DNA of 64,000 nucleotides from Thermoanaerobaculia bacterium (GTDB lineage Bacteria > Acidobacteriota > Thermoanaerobaculia > Multivoradales > J023), in assembly GCA_030431255.1 (NCBI GenBank), contig JAUIJL010000005.1, forward strand, positions 29,313-93,312. Direction: 5' to 3'. This document shows positions 60,702-63,968 of the stretch, in pieces; the stretch's first letter is position 1, and each line of letters begins with the position of its first letter. The notes beneath the pieces were generated by a model. That model was not told the DNA's origin. It saw nothing but the letters and a program-made list of their open reading frames with translations, and searched no databases. The position numbers and the translations under genes are program-made.

Positions 60702-60914
60702 TCAATAGCAGTGCTTCGGCGGGCACGGCGAGCAGATGGCCGACGTCGGGCAGAAGGTGCCGTAGCTGCAGCCACCGGTGAGACTGCTGAGAGCCTCGTC
60801 ATCGACGTTCATGACCGCGGCCGGGCTCTCGGGAAGAGCGGCTTTTTGGTCTTGGCTCAGCTCGGCATAGAACTCGCCGTCACGCCACGCACGAATCACG
60901 TCTTGCTTTTTCAT
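60702..60914 (-). CDS. lanA: Class II lanthipeptide precursor (LanA), 70 aa: mersacidin/lichenicidin-type leader ending in a double-glycine (LTGG) site, followed by a 22-aa Cys/Ser/Thr-rich core CSYGTFCPTSAICSPCPPKHCY
   Basis: Leader MKKQDVIRAWRDGEFYAELSQDQKAALPESPAAVMNVDDEALSSLTGG matches the AW(K/R)DP-x-(F/Y)R...LP-x-x-PAG...GG pattern. Shine-Dalgarno AGGAGA 6 nt upstream of ATG 60914. Core has 5 Cys and 5 Ser/Thr. Immediately downstream of lanM. Confidence 0.8.
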   Translation of the reverse strand: MKKQDVIRAWRDGEFYAELSQDQKAALPESPAAVMNVDDEALSSLTGGCSYGTFCPTSAICSPCPPKHCY

Positions 60915-61010
60915 AGTCAGTCTCCTACATGCGGGTCGGTTCAATTCGAGCTGTGGATCACCGACCCTCGATCCACAGCTCGCTGCCCCGACACATGTCG
61001 GGACGAAAGA

Positions 61011-63968
61011 CTAAGAGCTTTTCGAAGGCACCGATTCAAGGGTCAGAATAGAAGGAATTCGCTCGGGCGCCGCGAGCCTGGCCAAGCCGTAGGCAACGCC
61101 CGCCAAACCGGTCATCAAGCCCGGCGTCTCCACGCTCCCGGGCAGGCCGAACAACAAACCGTCCCGTCGGATGCTGTCGAGCACACCGCCCGCCAACCGA
61201 CCGGCGGACGCCGACCAATCCCCGCGATCCAGGGTCCGACCCGCCATGGCGAGCAACTGCAGATTGCCCACATCTCCGTGGCAGAGGCAGTGGTTCTGGC
61301 CCAAGCCGTTGAGCTCGGTGGAACGTACGGTGGTCTCGATCTCGGCTCGAATCTGATCGTCGTCGAGGAACGGCAAGCCGGCGAGGCGAGCCATGCCGAT
61401 TCCCGGCGCACCGTGACACCAGGCCTGCATGAAATGGCCGGTGGAGGCGTCCATGCCTTCGGCCGCTCCGGCCCTCAGATCCGGCCAATTCTGCCGCTCT
61501 GCCACAAAGAGGCCGCGCTCAAAAGCCAGAGCTCGGTCGGCGGTATGTCGGAACGTTTCATCTCCCGTGGCGTCCGCGATGTGCAGCAGGGCCAACGCAA
61601 TACCCGCCGCCCCGTGGGACAGCCCAGCCAGGGCCCGATCACCGGCCAGGGGCATTCGCCAGCCCAACCCTTCACCATGGGGCTCGGCCTTCTCCAACAA
61701 CCGCTCGCCACAGGCGCGGACCAACGGCAGCAGGCTCGGATCGGGTCGCACCTCGTGCAGACGCAGCAAGGACACCGCACAACCCGCGGAGCCGGCGATC
61801 CAATCGAGCAGCTCGTCCCGAGCGATCCGCTCGGCCAACCCTTCGGTGGTGGCCATGGCTTCGTCGAGCAAGGCCTCGTCTCCCCACAGGGAGCCGAGCT
61901 GGGTGAGCACATAAATCACGCCGCCCCAGCCGTTGAAGCCGCCGAGTCCTTGGACCCTCGACGGATCGTCGCGGATTTGGCGACGCTGAGCTTCCAGGGC
62001 TAAGCGGGAGAGCTCGGTGAGCTCACCGTCGCCCAGCAAGTCGCCCAGAAACCCCAAGCTGAAAGCGATGCCCGGTAGGCCCTGAAAGACATCGGGCCCG
62101 GTAGGCGCTAGGTGCCACCCTTCTACCTCGCCGTGGTGCAGGGTCAGCCAACAGGCCTCTTTAGATCCGCGGAAGGCCCGATCCACGATGCGGCGGGAAA
62201 TCTCGGCGGCCGCCGCGCAGAGCTCGTCACGGCCGGCCGGCCGCTCCCGCGGCGACATCTCGAAGGAAGGTCGCGGCTGGGCTTGGGTGCCGAGCAAGAG
62301 GGCGTCCAAGGAGTCGTGCAAGACCGCGAGCTGACGGGCCAGGTCCGCAGGACCCAGGTCCTCGATTCGACGGCGCACGCTCTCTAATCCCGACTGTCCC
62401 AGAAGCTCGGGGAACGTGGTGCCGTCCCAGGTCCAGACGTCCCGAGATCCACCGGTGGTCACGAAGAGCGGGATGTCCCCCTGCTCCAAATCGCGGACCT
62501 CCACACCCACCAGGGTCTTCAGGAAGGGTCGGTGCTCCCCCATCACCCACAGTCGATCGAAGAGCCGTCGACGGCTGGGGTCGTGGGTCAAGACATGGGG
62601 ATGGTAGCTCTCCAACAACAAGGTGCCGTAGGTCGCGGTCTGACGGAAGAGAATGCGCACCTCGGCATCTTCGAAGGCCTTCAACGGGCCGTCGTCCGCC
62701 AGCAGCTCTTCCCGATGGGCCGTCAGCAGGCCGTAGAGGGCTCGGAAACCTTGCTCCAAATCCTGCCGATGATCCAACAAAGACACCTCGGCGCCGGCCA
62801 CCCGGGGCCGGTTCTCGCCCACGGGAATCTCCACCTTGCGCCGCTCCACCCGCATCTCGTCGGTTCCTACGGCGGCGGTCGCCAGCACCGGCAGAGGGGT
62901 CATCTGGCCTTCGCGGGACGCCAAGCCGCTCAGGTCGACCCCTTGGTTCTCACCATCGCCCCACCATTTGTCCGGCAGCAAGTTGCTGCGCAACAGCGAC
63001 GAGCGCAATACCGCGCCGGGCTGATCGTCGAAGTCGCCGAGCTTCGAGCCCAGCACCCAGGGCTGCAAGAGGGTCTCAAGGTCCACGGGCACCGGATGCT
63101 CACCCGCGGCAATCAAATTCTCTTGGTGAAAATCCGTCGCCTCCAACACATAGAGCAAGGCCAGATAGGCTCCTTGACGACGGTAGAAGCGGCTCAGCTG
63201 GGCGTGGTCGTCACAAGCGGCGCCGTCGACCATCTCCATCCAGCCGTAGTCGCCCCGATCCACCACCTCCAGGATCCGGAAACCGAGCTCGAAGCCCCGC
63301 TCATTGATCCACTGCTGCAAGCCCTGAAAGGCGGTCTCGACGGCCATGGATTTCGGCTTGTAAACGATGCGAAATCCCGAGTCGAAACCGAGCAAGTAAA
63401 CCCCCCGGCCACCGCGATGGGGATCGGAAACCGCACCGGTCACGACCTCCAGCTGCCCGATCGATGTCGCGGAAAAGCATCGCCGCGACAAGATGTCGGC
63501 ATCCTCGGCCAATCGTTCGAGAAACTCCCCCGCCGCCCGTCGCCATTGCTCGAAACGCAGCACCAGCTGCCGAGCCAGGACGGGATAACGCTTGAGCACG
63601 GCCACAGCTGTGATCGGATCTTTGAGGCTCTCAATGAAGTTTTGGAATCGCTCTTTGCTGTCGTTGCCCTCTAGGCGTTCCTCCATGCGCGCGATGTGCA
63701 GCTCCACCACCATCGGACGGTGCAACATGCTCGCCACCAAATCGGGAATCGGCGACGTCAGGGCTGTGGCCGCCCGCCGGGGATCGAAGGGCGCGTTGGG
63801 AAACCGCGCTTTCACCGCCTGAGCATCCGCCACCAAAGCGTCAAAGGACCGACGGAAGAGTGGATCCAAGAGGGGCAGGAACGGACAGCGCTCTAGATCA
63901 GCATGCTCCGGCCAATCAAAAGGCTCGAAGCTCGAAGGCTCGGCTTGGCCATAGGCCGACATCAGCAC
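61011..63968 (-). CDS. lanM: Class II lanthipeptide synthetase LanM (N-terminal dehydratase domain plus C-terminal LanC-like cyclase)
   Basis: 985 aa. C-terminal LanC motifs SHGAAGI, WCHGAPG and NHCLCHGDVG supply the Zn ligands Cys/Cys/His. N-terminal 600 aa show LanM-typical dehydratase-domain features. Confidence 0.9.
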   Translation of the reverse strand: MLMSAYGQAEPSSFEPFDWPEHADLERCPFLPLLDPLFRRSFDALVADAQAVKARFPNAPFDPRRAATALTSPIPDLVASMLHRPMVVELHIARMEERLEGNDSKERFQNFIESLKDPITAVAVLKRYPVLARQLVLRFEQWRRAAGEFLERLAEDADILSRRCFSATSIGQLEVVTGAVSDPHRGGRGVYLLGFDSGFRIVYKPKSMAVETAFQGLQQWINERGFELGFRILEVVDRGDYGWMEMVDGAACDDHAQLSRFYRRQGAYLALLYVLEATDFHQENLIAAGEHPVPVDLETLLQPWVLGSKLGDFDDQPGAVLRSSLLRSNLLPDKWWGDGENQGVDLSGLASREGQMTPLPVLATAAVGTDEMRVERRKVEIPVGENRPRVAGAEVSLLDHRQDLEQGFRALYGLLTAHREELLADDGPLKAFEDAEVRILFRQTATYGTLLLESYHPHVLTHDPSRRRLFDRLWVMGEHRPFLKTLVGVEVRDLEQGDIPLFVTTGGSRDVWTWDGTTFPELLGQSGLESVRRRIEDLGPADLARQLAVLHDSLDALLLGTQAQPRPSFEMSPRERPAGRDELCAAAAEISRRIVDRAFRGSKEACWLTLHHGEVEGWHLAPTGPDVFQGLPGIAFSLGFLGDLLGDGELTELSRLALEAQRRQIRDDPSRVQGLGGFNGWGGVIYVLTQLGSLWGDEALLDEAMATTEGLAERIARDELLDWIAGSAGCAVSLLRLHEVRPDPSLLPLVRACGERLLEKAEPHGEGLGWRMPLAGDRALAGLSHGAAGIALALLHIADATGDETFRHTADRALAFERGLFVAERQNWPDLRAGAAEGMDASTGHFMQAWCHGAPGIGMARLAGLPFLDDDQIRAEIETTVRSTELNGLGQNHCLCHGDVGNLQLLAMAGRTLDRGDWSASAGRLAGGVLDSIRRDGLLFGLPGSVETPGLMTGLAGVAYGLARLAAPERIPSILTLESVPSKSS

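What the first reader, a model, noticed from the sequence alone, without database searches (positions are those of the whole stretch)
60702..63968. Class II lanthipeptide biosynthetic locus (lanM-lanA) at the window edge
A 985-aa LanM-type bifunctional synthetase is followed 96 bp downstream by a 70-aa precursor with a canonical mersacidin/lichenicidin-alpha-like leader and double-glycine cleavage site. The LanM C-terminus carries the complete LanC zinc-ligand set. These clusters are mostly characterised in Firmicutes, Actinobacteria and cyanobacteria. A mersacidin-leader lanthipeptide in a high-GC Gram-negative genome that also encodes a TolC-dependent export module would, if confirmed, be an undescribed natural product. 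The locus continues past the window end, so further lanA copies or immunity genes may lie beyond 64000.
Basis: partly seen in the sequence, partly recalled or inferred. Interest (0 to 1): 0.85.

Follow-up and report, generated by a model that had tools for sequence, protein, structure and literature searches.

The report
Thiazole-capped class II lanthipeptide gene cluster
The lanM-lanA pair is real. It belongs to a peptide family from Acidobacteriota, first described in 2026, in which a flavoenzyme encoded just past the window edge turns the supposed Gly-Gly/Cys cleavage site into a thiazole, so this is a new member of a known kind rather than a wholly undescribed system.

Summary
lanM (minus strand, 61011 to beyond 64000) scores 897 bits on TIGR03897. 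It has both Pfam domains and aligned Cys/Cys/His zinc ligands. lanA (60914-60702, 70 aa) lies 96 bp downstream and matches the mersacidin/lichenicidin leader model.

There are two corrections. The "985 aa" is a window-edge artefact: a contig 100% identical to the window shows a 1110-aa LanM. Directly upstream of it lies a 529-aa GMC oxidoreductase, not more lanA or immunity genes.

That GMC is 61.5% identical to ThaO, and LanM is 42% identical to ThaM. The leader is the same length as those of ThaA and TheA, with the same GG-Cys-Ser junction. ThaO and TheO were shown in 2026 (PMC13083261) to make a thiazole from Gly(-1)-Cys1.

GMC→lanM→lanA←C39-ABC is conserved in 14 of 16 related loci. This ties the window's exporter operon (50176-55660) to the cluster. 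A riboswitch-controlled TonB receptor and a sulfatase are inserted between lanA and the exporter.

The 22-residue core (CSxxxxCPTSA[IY]CSPCPPxHC[YF]; five Cys, four conserved Ser/Thr) is uncharacterised. Leader removal is unresolved, because the thiazole would consume the scissile bond while the C39 catalytic motifs stay intact.

Verdict: a new member of a known kind.

The parts
61011..64000 (-). lanM, a class II lanthipeptide synthetase. The window holds residues 116-1110 of a 1110-aa protein; the start codon lies about 343 bp past the window end.
   Evidence: Pfam DUF4135 406 bits and LANC_like 206 bits. TIGR03897 897.5 bits. Best solved relative is LicM2 (6ST5), E 2.5e-113. The frame is open to base 64000. 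The full gene is seen in the identical contigs L001 and L022. It is 41.7% identical to ThaM over 1016 aa.
61289..61630 (-). Cyclase active-site motifs of LanM. In full-length numbering these are His910 in LSHGAAG, Cys976 in AWCHG, and Cys1021/His1022 in CLCHG.
   Evidence: They align with the SHG, WCxG and CHG motifs of LicM2, NisC and LanCL2.
63086..63382 (-). Dehydratase (kinase-like) motifs of LanM: VYKPKS, DFHQEN and VDLETL.
   Evidence: The motifs are conserved in the alignment with LicM2.
60948..61002 (-). Two consecutive stem-loops in the 96-bp lanM-lanA spacer: CCCGACA/TGTCGGG and GAGCTGTGGATC/GATCCACAGCTC.
   Evidence: The RNA fold of 60600-61015 has z = -4.98. In single-sequence folds, most of 18 diverged loci show two consecutive hairpins upstream of lanA, with different sequences. 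A formal covariation count was not achieved.
60922..60926 (-). Shine-Dalgarno-like AGGAG, 7 nt upstream of the lanA ATG.
   Evidence: Read directly from the sequence.
60771..60914 (-). lanA leader, 48 aa (MKKQDVIRAWRDGEFYAELSQDQKAALPESPAAVMNVDDEALSSLTGG).
   Evidence: TIGR03898 56.9 bits, residues 5-48. 23 of 48 residues are identical, without gaps, to each of the ThaA and TheA leaders. Positions -4, -7 and -12 are hydrophobic and positions -1 and -2 are Gly in 66 of 66 members.
60705..60770 (-). lanA core, 22 aa (CSYGTFCPTSAICSPCPPKHCY). Cys1 is the predicted thiazole site. Conserved Ser2, Thr9, Ser10 and Ser14 and Cys7, Cys13, Cys16 and Cys21 are the predicted (methyl)lanthionine partners.
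   Evidence: Family alignment A1. Cys at +1 in 65 of 66 members and Ser/Thr at +2 in 63 of 66. Exactly five Cys in 58 of 64 cores. The ThaA chemistry is described.
60702..60704 (-). lanA stop codon (TGA).
60618..60647 (-). Intrinsic-terminator-like hairpin (13-bp stem, 8 G-C pairs) followed by GCTTTTTGG. It probably marks the end of the lanM-lanA transcript.
   Evidence: L022:15534-15563, mapped by window = 76181 - L022 position.
52275..54575 (+). LanT-type ABC exporter with an N-terminal C39 peptidase domain (766 aa). Synteny assigns it to the cluster.
   Evidence: Pfam Peptidase_C39, ABC_membrane and ABC_tran. TIGR03796 scores 633 bits, below its cut-off of 853. The Q..DCG(A)ACL, HWG-FHHFVV and DP motifs are conserved in 12 loci. 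An orthologue (63-69% identical) lies convergent to lanA in 17 of 18 loci with sequence coverage.
50176..52278 (+). 700-aa protein with a HlyD-type adaptor region (residues 447-590) and an unassigned N-terminal half. Its stop overlaps the start of the ABC gene.
   Evidence: Orthologues precede the C39-ABC gene in L005 (45% identity) and L006 (72% identity).
54572..55660 (+). 362-aa periplasmic adaptor (membrane-fusion protein). Its start overlaps the stop of the ABC gene.
   Evidence: TIGR01730 127 bits against a cut-off of 94.9. Pfam HlyD_D23 and HlyD_3. Orthologues are present in L005 and L006.

Best explanation
This is the right-hand part of a biosynthetic gene cluster for a thiazole-bearing class II lanthipeptide, of the type described as tha/the in Acidobacteriota in 2026.

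Proposed pathway:
1. lanA encodes a 70-aa precursor: a 48-aa leader of the mersacidin/lichenicidin type and a 22-aa core.
2. LanM (1110 aa) binds the leader. It phosphorylates and eliminates the conserved Ser/Thr residues (Ser2, Thr9, Ser10, Ser14, possibly Thr5). Its zinc-dependent cyclase domain then adds Cys thiols to form (methyl)lanthionine rings.
3. A cytoplasmic FAD-dependent GMC oxidoreductase acts next. It is encoded immediately upstream of lanM, about 590 bp past the window end. It is orthologous to ThaO and TheO. It oxidises Cys1 and closes it onto the carbonyl of Gly(-1), giving a thiazole at the leader/core junction (-20 Da).
5. The product is exported by the C39-peptidase ABC transporter and its two membrane-fusion proteins at 50176-55660.

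In this lineage a riboswitch-controlled BtuB-like receptor and a sulfatase have been inserted between lanA and the exporter operon.

Shown here: gene identities, catalytic motifs, orthology to the characterised enzymes, conserved synteny, and purifying selection on lanA.

Inferred: the chemistry on this particular core, the ring topology, the order of steps, the bioactivity, and how the leader is removed once the Gly-Cys bond has become part of a heterocycle.
For: LanM and LanA identity:
- HMM scores far above cut-offs.
- Zinc ligands and kinase-like motifs align with LicM2 and NisC.
- lanA shows 12 synonymous against 3 non-synonymous changes versus its closest orthologue.

Locus extension:
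- L022 is 100% identical to the window over 9410 bp.
- It shows GMC (P0067, 529 aa) → 247-bp spacer → lanM (1110 aa) → lanA.
- The last 35 residues of P0067 are also present on L001.

Orthology to characterised enzymes:
- P0067 is 61.5% identical to full-length ThaO over 524 aa.
- P0067 is 64.8% identical to TheO over the 366 aa available. That is as close as ThaO and TheO are to each other (64.7%).
- L024 is the published tha locus itself: its peptide equals ThaA.
- P0067 starts directly with its FAD-binding motif (sequence). It shows no signal-peptide-like stretch, which I take to mean it is cytoplasmic.

Experimental basis in the homologues (PMC13083261):
- ThaM installs two D,L-(methyl)lanthionines.
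- ThaO adds a 20.03 Da loss that needs Cys1. NMR showed it to be a thiazole formed from Gly(-1)-Cys1.
- TheO does the same at the GGC motif of TheA.

Precursor features:
- The leader is the same length as those of ThaA and TheA, with the same GG-C-S junction as ThaA.
- Cys is at +1 in 65 of 66 members and Ser/Thr at +2 in 63 of 66.

Synteny:
- GMC lies directly upstream of lanM in 14 of 16 distinct loci with coverage.
- C39-ABC lies convergent after lanA in 17 of 18 loci.
- The genes further upstream differ between loci.
- Every ThaO-like GMC whose surroundings were examined, including four at about 60% identity picked for this purpose, sits beside a lanM and a small peptide gene.
Against: - The GMC gene is not in the window. 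It is known only from an identical metagenomic contig.
- Nothing has been measured for this core, which differs from ThaA (16 aa) and TheA (34 aa).
- Two related loci (L018, L019) keep the GGCS junction without an adjacent GMC.
- One Myxococcus stipitatus paralogue lacks Cys1.
- The leader keeps the classic double-glycine recognition pattern, and the exporter keeps intact C39 catalytic motifs. This argues that cleavage after Gly-Gly still happens, which is chemically incompatible with a Gly(-1)-Cys1 thiazole on the same molecule.
- The exporter is separated from lanA by about 5 kb of unrelated genes, and a neighbouring gene has decayed, so the cluster may not be fully functional in this strain.
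Confidence: 0.75

Rival explanations
1. It is a conventional mersacidin-like class II lantibiotic. LanM makes the rings, and the C39-ABC transporter cuts after Gly47-Gly48 and exports a 22-residue peptide starting at Cys1. The neighbouring GMC oxidoreductase plays no part.
For: - The leader matches TIGR03898.
- Positions -1 and -2 are Gly and positions -4, -7 and -12 are hydrophobic in 66 of 66 members.
- The C39 catalytic motifs are intact in all 12 loci compared.
- Mersacidin also starts with Cys, which forms a small ring with residue 2 (my own knowledge).
- L018 and L019 lack an adjacent GMC.
Against: - The GMC is 61.5% identical to ThaO and is adjacent in 14 of 16 loci.
- Cys at +1 is nearly invariant, which a plain cleavage site would not require.
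- The homologous ThaA and TheA peptides are experimentally thiazolated at exactly this junction.
- The core has no Glu or Asp, so the mersacidin lipid II-binding ring is absent.
Confidence: 0.15
2. It is a decaying or silent cluster. The genes are recognisable, but in this strain the cluster has been broken up and makes no product.
For: - A TonB receptor with its own riboswitch and a sulfatase separate lanA from the exporter.
- The TPR-thioredoxin gene that follows lanA in L006 survives here only as two out-of-frame pieces.
- There is only one lanA copy, against two to five in most relatives.
Against: - lanM, lanA, the GMC gene and all three exporter genes are intact ORFs.
- lanA is under purifying selection.
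- Ribosome-binding, promoter-like and terminator-like signals are in place.
- L006 shares the receptor insertion and is otherwise intact.
Confidence: 0.07

Closest known systems
tha cluster (ThaA/ThaM/ThaO) of 'Candidatus Moanaiibacterium opulentum', Thermoanaerobaculia (PMC13083261, Nature 2026)
   Same: - The leader is of the mersacidin type, 48 aa long, and ends in GG followed by Cys-Ser.
- The core has five Cys.
- LanM is 41.7% identical to ThaM.
- The GMC oxidoreductase is 61.5% identical to ThaO.
- The host phylum is the same.
   Different: - The core is 22 aa, not 16, and is unrelated in sequence.
- Four conserved Ser/Thr residues allow up to four rings. ThaA has two rings and two free Cys.
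- The gene order is GMC-lanM-lanA rather than thaA-thaM-thaO.
- A convergent C39-ABC/HlyD exporter is conserved here. The authors reported no conserved architecture around ThaA and ThaO.
- No chemistry or activity has been measured for this peptide.
the cluster (TheA/TheM/TheO/TheB/TheN), soil Thermoanaerobaculia MAG GCA_035278895.1 (same paper)
   Same: - The GGC junction is the same.
- The GMC is 64.8% identical to TheO over 366 aa.
- LanM is 48% identical to TheM over the 220 aa that aligned out of the 399 available.
   Different: - TheA has Gly at +2 and TheO works without TheM. The window peptide has Ser at +2, as in ThaA, whose ThaO needed ThaM.
- No TheB-like gluconate 2-dehydrogenase subunit 3 gene and no acetyltransferase gene lies next to the GMC here. 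TheB-like genes are present in L025 and L026.
Mersacidin / lichenicidin family of class II lantibiotics (LicM2 structure 6ST5)
   Same: - The leader belongs to family TIGR03898.
- The LanM architecture is the same, and LicM2 is the best solved relative, E 2.5e-113.
- The core starts with Cys.
   Different: - There is no lipid II-binding C-T-x-T-x-E-C-type ring and no acidic residue in the core.
- There is no LanD decarboxylase, second LanM or beta peptide.
- The host is Gram-negative.
- A GMC thiazole-forming enzyme is associated with the cluster.
Double-glycine (C39 peptidase) bacteriocin exporters: NHLP-type ABC1, CvaAB, LanT
   Same: - The domain order is C39, then transmembrane region, then ATPase, and the Cys/His/Asp motifs are intact.
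- HlyD-type adaptors are present, as expected for a diderm cell.
   Different: - The ABC protein scores below the equivalog cut-off of TIGR03796 (633 against 853).
- There are two adaptor proteins, one with a long unassigned N-terminal half.
- The predicted substrate may lack the scissile Gly-Cys bond.

Membership tests
Class II (LanM-type) lanthipeptide system | A single bifunctional synthetase with an N-terminal DUF4135 dehydratase domain and a C-terminal LanC-like cyclase domain | tested here: met
   PF13575 406 bits, PF05147 206 bits, TIGR03897 897.5 bits against a cut-off of 304
Class II (LanM-type) lanthipeptide system | Cys/Cys/His zinc ligands and the active-site His in the cyclase domain | tested here: met
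   AWCHG, CLCHG and LSHG align with the same motifs of LicM2, NisC and LanCL2
Class II (LanM-type) lanthipeptide system | An adjacent precursor gene with a leader and a core rich in Ser/Thr and Cys | tested here: met
   70-aa LanA 96 bp downstream. The core has 5 Ser/Thr and 5 Cys
Class II (LanM-type) lanthipeptide system | Dehydration and thioether formation demonstrated on the peptide | not testable with these tools
   Needs co-expression and mass spectrometry
tha/the-type thiazole lanthipeptides (PMC13083261) | A ThaO/TheO-type GMC oxidoreductase encoded next to lanM | tested here: met
   P0067 lies directly upstream of lanM on L022, which is 100% identical to the window. It is 61.5% identical to ThaO over 524 aa and 64.8% identical to TheO. 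The gene lies outside the window.
tha/the-type thiazole lanthipeptides (PMC13083261) | A precursor with a mersacidin-type leader ending in Gly-Gly and followed by Cys (the thiazole site) | tested here: met
   ...SSLTGG-CS.... Cys is at +1 in 65 of 66 family members. 23 of 48 leader residues are identical to each of ThaA and TheA
tha/the-type thiazole lanthipeptides (PMC13083261) | A LanM homologous to ThaM/TheM | tested here: met
   41.7% identical to ThaM over 1016 aa
tha/the-type thiazole lanthipeptides (PMC13083261) | A 20 Da loss and thiazole formation at Gly(-1)-Cys1 | not testable with these tools
   Shown only for ThaA (NMR) and TheA (MS)
Mersacidin/lichenicidin-alpha lantibiotics (lipid II binders) | Leader of family TIGR03898 | tested here: met
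   56.9 bits against a cut-off of 23.5. The match covers leader residues 5-48 only
Mersacidin/lichenicidin-alpha lantibiotics (lipid II binders) | A conserved core ring of the C-T-x-T-x-E-C type with an essential Glu (definition from my own knowledge of the family) | tested here: not met
   The core CSYGTFCPTSAICSPCPPKHCY has no acidic residue. The equivalent stretch, CPTSAIC, has Ile where Glu would be, and this holds across the family
Mersacidin/lichenicidin-alpha lantibiotics (lipid II binders) | A partner beta peptide with a second LanM (two-peptide members), or a LanD decarboxylase (mersacidin) | tested here: not met
   There is one lanM and one lanA. No HFCD-type gene is present among the genes of the window or L022
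NHLP-type / double-glycine bacteriocin exporter | An ABC transporter with an N-terminal C39 peptidase domain that retains its catalytic Cys and His | tested here: met
   PF03412 107 bits. The DCGAACL and HWGFHHFVV motifs are conserved in 12 loci.
NHLP-type / double-glycine bacteriocin exporter | Score above the equivalog cut-off of TIGR03796/TIGR03797 | tested here: not met
   633 bits against a cut-off of 853, and 482 against 709

The most novel reading that the evidence does not exclude
The cluster couples two steps that exclude each other on the same bond.
- The leader is optimised for a C39 double-glycine peptidase, and the exporter's peptidase is catalytically intact and co-conserved.
- A co-conserved flavoenzyme converts the Gly(-1)-Cys1 amide, which is the scissile bond, into a thiazole.

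The most novel reading is that this is a real maturation logic that has not been described. In it, thiazole formation masks the canonical site. Leader removal would then occur elsewhere, by upstream cleavage followed by trimming to a thiazole-capped N-terminus. Alternatively, the C39 domain sorts the precursor into two products, one cleaved and one thiazole-capped.

In this core subfamily the product would be a fully cross-linked peptide with four rings, one thiazole and no free thiol. Its natural role may be protease inhibition rather than killing: modified ThaA inhibits neutrophil elastase at 2.6 uM.
Probability: 0.3. Interest if true: 0.7.

Novelty: new member of a known kind. Interest (0 to 1): 0.5.

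Why it matters
GMC-flavoenzyme thiazole formation is a very recent addition to RiPP chemistry. It needs no ATP and no YcaO enzyme. So far it rests on two clusters.

This locus belongs to a third core subfamily that appears to be much larger:
- At least 65 sequence clusters (90% identity) were found in metagenomes.
- The C-terminal ICSPCPPxHC-type motif also occurs in the cultured Myxococcus stipitatus.

It also shows something the original study did not see: a conserved architecture of GMC, lanM, one to five lanA copies and a convergent C39 exporter.

This gives a defined set of genes for three experiments:
1. Testing whether thiazole formation generalises to other cores.
2. Testing whether all five Cys residues can be consumed.
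3. Working out how a leader is removed when its cleavage bond has been turned into a heterocycle.

For genome mining, it warns that a "canonical double-glycine site" followed by an invariant Cys next to a GMC gene should not be read as a simple cleavage site.

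Tried and rejected
1. A second lanA copy or remnant in the window. tblastn found only the one gene. The 1-kb gap after lanA holds pieces of a decayed TPR-thioredoxin gene and a cobalamin riboswitch instead.
2. The TonB receptor and sulfatase as cluster components (uptake or immunity). Rejected. The receptor has its own cobalamin riboswitch (50 bits). The sulfatase is absent from L006. 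Neither gene is present in the other 15 loci.
3. The histidine kinase and response regulator upstream of the GMC gene as LanRK-type regulators. Left unassigned. The ORFs upstream of the GMC gene in the closest relative, L006, have no Pfam match at all.
4. A mersacidin-like mode of action. Rejected because the core has no acidic residue.
5. A consensus structure for the lanM-lanA spacer. RNAalifold on the MAFFT alignment found only a 4-bp GGCC pairing, because the hairpins are out of register between lineages. Only single-sequence folds support the two hairpins.
6. Naming the organism. Source names of the closest RelA/SpoT relatives were cut off before the organism name. Assignment to Acidobacteriota rests on three things. 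LanA relatives come from Holophagales (80-81% identical) and Thermoanaerobaculia MAGs. Most genome loci recovered are Thermoanaerobaculia or Acidobacteriota MAGs. One named RelA/SpoT hit at 64% identity is from Acidobacteriota.
7. A literature search for the core motifs (ICSPCPP, ICTPCPP, YCSPCPP, CSPCPPKHC) found no paper. A search for GMC + thiazole + lanthipeptide found only PMC13083261.
8. A TolC-type gene next to the exporter. None was found. The only OEP domain in the window is 40 kb away, in an RND operon.
9. Structure prediction and fold search were not used, because sequence-level orthology was already decisive.

Full report
**1. The observation**

On the minus strand there is an ORF that ends at 61011. 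A 70-codon ORF follows from 60914 to 60702.

The large protein matches Pfam DUF4135 (406 bits) and LANC_like (206 bits). It matches NCBIfam TIGR03897 (type 2 lanthipeptide synthetase LanM) at 897.5 bits against a cut-off of 304. The closest solved structure is LicM2 (6ST5, E 2.5e-113), followed by CylM and NisC. In these alignments the cyclase motifs LSHGAAG, AWCHGAPG and CLCHGDVG line up with the corresponding motifs of LicM2, NisC and human LanCL2. The kinase-like motifs VYKPKS, DFHQEN and VDLETL line up with LicM2.

[quoted passage not shown] The match covers leader residues 5-48. An AGGAG lies 7 nt before the ATG. A 13-bp G+C-rich hairpin with a T tract lies 55 bp after the stop. Compared with the orthologue in L006, lanA has 12 synonymous and 3 non-synonymous codon differences. 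It is therefore a gene under purifying selection, not a chance ORF.

The frame of lanM is still open at base 64000, so the "985-aa" protein that begins at the GTG at 63968 is an artefact of the window edge.

**2. What lies beyond the window**

An exact look-up of LanA found contig L001, and a look-up of a GMC oxidoreductase found contig L022. Both are 100% identical to the window, over 11,702 and 9,410 bp respectively. Positions map as window = 76181 - L022 position.

These contigs show the following:
- lanM starts at an ATG equivalent to window position 64343 and encodes 1110 aa.
- Upstream of lanM is a 247-bp A+T-rich spacer with a promoter-like TTGACG-18-TAATAT.
- Next upstream is a 529-aa GMC-family oxidoreductase, P0067 (GMC_oxred_N and GMC_oxred_C).
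- Before that come a histidine kinase and an OmpR-type response regulator.
- There are no further lanA copies and no recognisable immunity genes.

**3. The neighbourhood is a conserved cluster**

The LanA family has 65 sequence clusters (at 90% identity) in the protein collection. All come from metagenomes or MAGs. Those that carry names are from Holophagales, Thermoanaerobaculia or Acidobacteriota.

A scan of species-representative genomes gave 16 loci. Nearly all are Thermoanaerobaculia or Acidobacteriota MAGs. Mapping the window's proteins onto all loci gave these results:
- A GMC oxidoreductase lies directly upstream of lanM in 14 of 16 distinct loci that have upstream sequence.
- One to five lanA copies follow lanM.
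- A C39-peptidase ABC transporter, 63-69% identical to the window's, converges on lanA in 17 of 18 loci with downstream sequence.
- The genes further upstream of the GMC gene differ between loci.

The block GMC-lanM-lanA-ABC therefore travels together.

In the window the same ABC gene lies at 52275-54575. It sits between two adaptor genes whose stop and start codons overlap it (50176-52278 and 54572-55660). The Holophagales locus L005 has this same three-gene arrangement right next to its lanA genes.

In the window the exporter is separated from lanA by two genes:
- A BtuB-like TonB-dependent receptor (57734-59632), preceded by a cobalamin riboswitch (59661-59925, 50 bits).
- A sulfatase (55713-57647).

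L006 has the receptor but not the sulfatase, and the other loci have neither. I read both genes as unrelated insertions.

**4. What the cluster is**

A full-text search led to PMC13083261 (Nature, February 2026). That study characterised the tha cluster of a coral-associated Thermoanaerobaculia MAG:
- ThaA is a precursor with a mersacidin-type leader.
- ThaM is a class II synthetase.
- ThaO is a GMC oxidoreductase.

Its findings were as follows:
- ThaM made a Ser2-Cys16 lanthionine and a Thr6-Cys13 methyllanthionine.
- ThaO together with ThaM caused a further loss of 20.03 Da. This loss was abolished by the Cys1Ala mutation. NMR showed it to be a thiazole formed from Gly(-1) and Cys1.
- The tryptic fragment of the modified peptide inhibited human neutrophil elastase with an IC50 of 2.6 uM.
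- In a second cluster (the), TheO made the same modification at the GGC motif of TheA without needing TheM.

The sequences come from the paper's supplementary tables. ThaO and ThaM could also be read in full from the genome itself: L024 is the published tha locus, and its 64-aa peptide equals ThaA.

Comparison with the window's genome gave these values:

| Window genome | Characterised protein | Identity |
|---|---|---|
| GMC (P0067) | ThaO | 61.5% over 524 aa |
| GMC (P0067) | TheO | 64.8% over 366 aa |
| LanM | ThaM | 41.7% over 1016 aa |
| LanA leader | ThaA leader and TheA leader | 23 of 48 residues each, no gaps |

ThaO and TheO are 64.7% identical to each other, so the window's GMC is as close to each of them as they are to one another. 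The LanA leader is 48 aa long, as in ThaA and TheA. It is followed by the same GG-Cys-Ser junction as in ThaA.

Every ThaO-like GMC whose surroundings I examined lies next to a lanM and a small peptide gene. Four of them, at about 60% identity, were picked specifically for this check. One is in the cultured Myxococcus stipitatus.

The window therefore meets every sequence-level criterion for a tha/the-type cluster.

**5. The precursor**

Across 66 family members, Gly(-1) and Gly(-2) are invariant. Positions -4, -7 and -12 are always hydrophobic, and position -15 is hydrophobic in 95%. From my own knowledge of the literature, this is the classic recognition pattern of double-glycine leaders for C39 peptidases.

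Position +1 is Cys in 65 of 66 members, and position +2 is Ser or Thr in 63 of 66. A plain cleavage site would not need that constraint, but the ThaO chemistry would.

The core consensus is C-S-x(2-5)-C-P-T-S-A-[IY]-C-[ST]-P-C-P-P-x-H-C-[YF]. It has exactly five Cys in 58 of 64 cores and four conserved Ser/Thr residues. One thiazole and four (methyl)lanthionines would use every Cys. This is my inference, and the topology cannot be derived from sequence.

The C-terminal ICSPCPPxHC-type motif also occurs in precursors with different N-terminal core halves and different cluster layouts. Examples are L025 (lanM-lanA-theB-like-GMC) and M. stipitatus. No paper in the library prints this motif.

The core has no acidic residue. 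The mersacidin-type lipid II-binding ring, with its essential Glu, is therefore absent. Only the leader is "mersacidin-like".

**6. The mechanism, and a problem with it**

The best-supported sequence of events is:
1. Ribosomal synthesis of LanA.
2. Leader-guided dehydration and cyclisation by LanM.
3. Oxidation of Cys1 and ring closure onto the Gly(-1) carbonyl by the GMC enzyme. The enzyme starts directly with its FAD-binding motif and shows no signal-peptide-like stretch. I take that to mean it is cytoplasmic.
4. Export through the C39-ABC transporter and its adaptors.

The unresolved point is leader removal. The C39 domain keeps its Gln/Cys/His/Asp motifs in all 12 loci compared, and the leader is a textbook C39 substrate. 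Yet a Gly(-1)-Cys1 thiazole removes the very amide bond that a double-glycine peptidase cuts. The 2026 paper used trypsin and AspN, and its main text does not mention leader removal or a C39 peptidase.

Three possibilities remain:
- The peptidase cuts elsewhere.
- The two reactions compete and give two products.
- Another protease trims the leader back to the thiazole.

This conflict is the most interesting open aspect of the locus.

**7. Rival explanations**

- A conventional lantibiotic cut after Gly-Gly, with the GMC irrelevant (about 0.15). This is favoured by the intact C39 domain and by two loci that lack an adjacent GMC (L018, L019). It is disfavoured by the orthology, the synteny and the invariant Cys1.
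- A decaying cluster (about 0.07). This is suggested by the inserted genes, the single lanA copy and the decayed TPR-thioredoxin gene next to lanA. Against it, all cluster ORFs are intact and lanA is under purifying selection.

**8. Novelty and score**

The locus is a new member of a kind known since February 2026. Its core subfamily is uncharacterised and widespread. Its conserved gene order was not reported before.

The proposed experiment should also be changed to include the GMC enzyme and to look for the additional 20 Da loss.

I score interest at 0.5. The call is solid and gives a useful lead, but the surprising chemistry has already been published.

Noticed in passing
window 8904-13325 (-): A single uninterrupted 1473-codon ORF joins an AcrB-type RND permease (Pfam ACR_tran, residues 9-998) to a TolC-like outer-membrane factor (OEP, up to residue 1463). 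The junction reads ...LYKLFFVRPSWKNLG-MGRRSLAAASIAFVVIVTGLVWVDPAAAA..., so the OEP part begins in frame with a stretch that looks like a signal peptide. This is either a real RND-OMF fusion or a lost stop codon. A HlyD-type adaptor gene lies upstream at 13322-14452.
   Followed up: partly
window 59661-59925 (-): A cobalamin riboswitch (RF00174, 50.1 bits, full-length match) lies just upstream of the BtuB-like TonB-dependent receptor at 57734-59632. It is the only Rfam match in the 64-kb window, and its core is 90% identical in L006.
   Followed up: yes
window 60017-60657 (-): Remains of a TPR-thioredoxin (TlpA-like) gene. In L006 this gene is intact (426 aa; Redoxin and TPR domains) and directly follows lanA. 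In the window only residues 1-153 and 371-426 are recognisable, and they lie in different frames. The ORFs listed at 59863-60519 (-) and 59729-60367 (+) are therefore probably not genes.
   Followed up: partly
window 60948-61002 (-); the same position in L002-L021: The lanM-lanA spacer folds into two consecutive hairpins. In single-sequence folds, most of 18 diverged loci show two consecutive hairpins there, although the sequences differ between lineages. A short GGCC(A/G)GCGA element recurs in the second loop of the Thermoanaerobaculia loci. This may be an RNA processing or stabilising element that sets the lanA to lanM ratio. Covariation could not be counted because the alignment was out of register.
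   Followed up: partly
L023 (Myxococcus stipitatus GCA_021412625.1) 1523-9608: A cultured myxobacterium carries the same kind of cluster: a GMC gene (63% identical to the L006 GMC used as the search query) divergent from lanM, two LanA genes and a C39-ABC gene. The cores are NSPSAESSAICTPCPPYHCV (no Cys1) and CCQPGQTTVICTPCPPKVCL. This is an accessible organism in which to look for the native product.
   Followed up: partly
L025 6270-8650 and L026 6260-8665: [quoted passage not shown] The precursors start GG-CC. The L025 precursor ends in AICTPCPPHHCL, the same C-terminal motif as the window's peptide.
   Followed up: no
window 41661-50068 (+): Upstream of the exporter operon lies a polysaccharide-type gene set. 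It comprises two GT4 glycosyltransferases, a polysaccharide deacetylase, an AMP-ligase-like protein and two large proteins with no family match (46687-47763 and 47915-50068). The 717-aa protein is also present next to the exporter in L006, so its link to either gene set is undecided.
   Followed up: no
window 17412-19964 (+) and 26406-32246 (-): Other context genes are a GAF-domain sigma-54 activator, a PilQ-type secretin with an AMIN domain, PilM, and a RelA/SpoT protein at 32467-34695. This is consistent with a diderm, piliated host.
   Followed up: no
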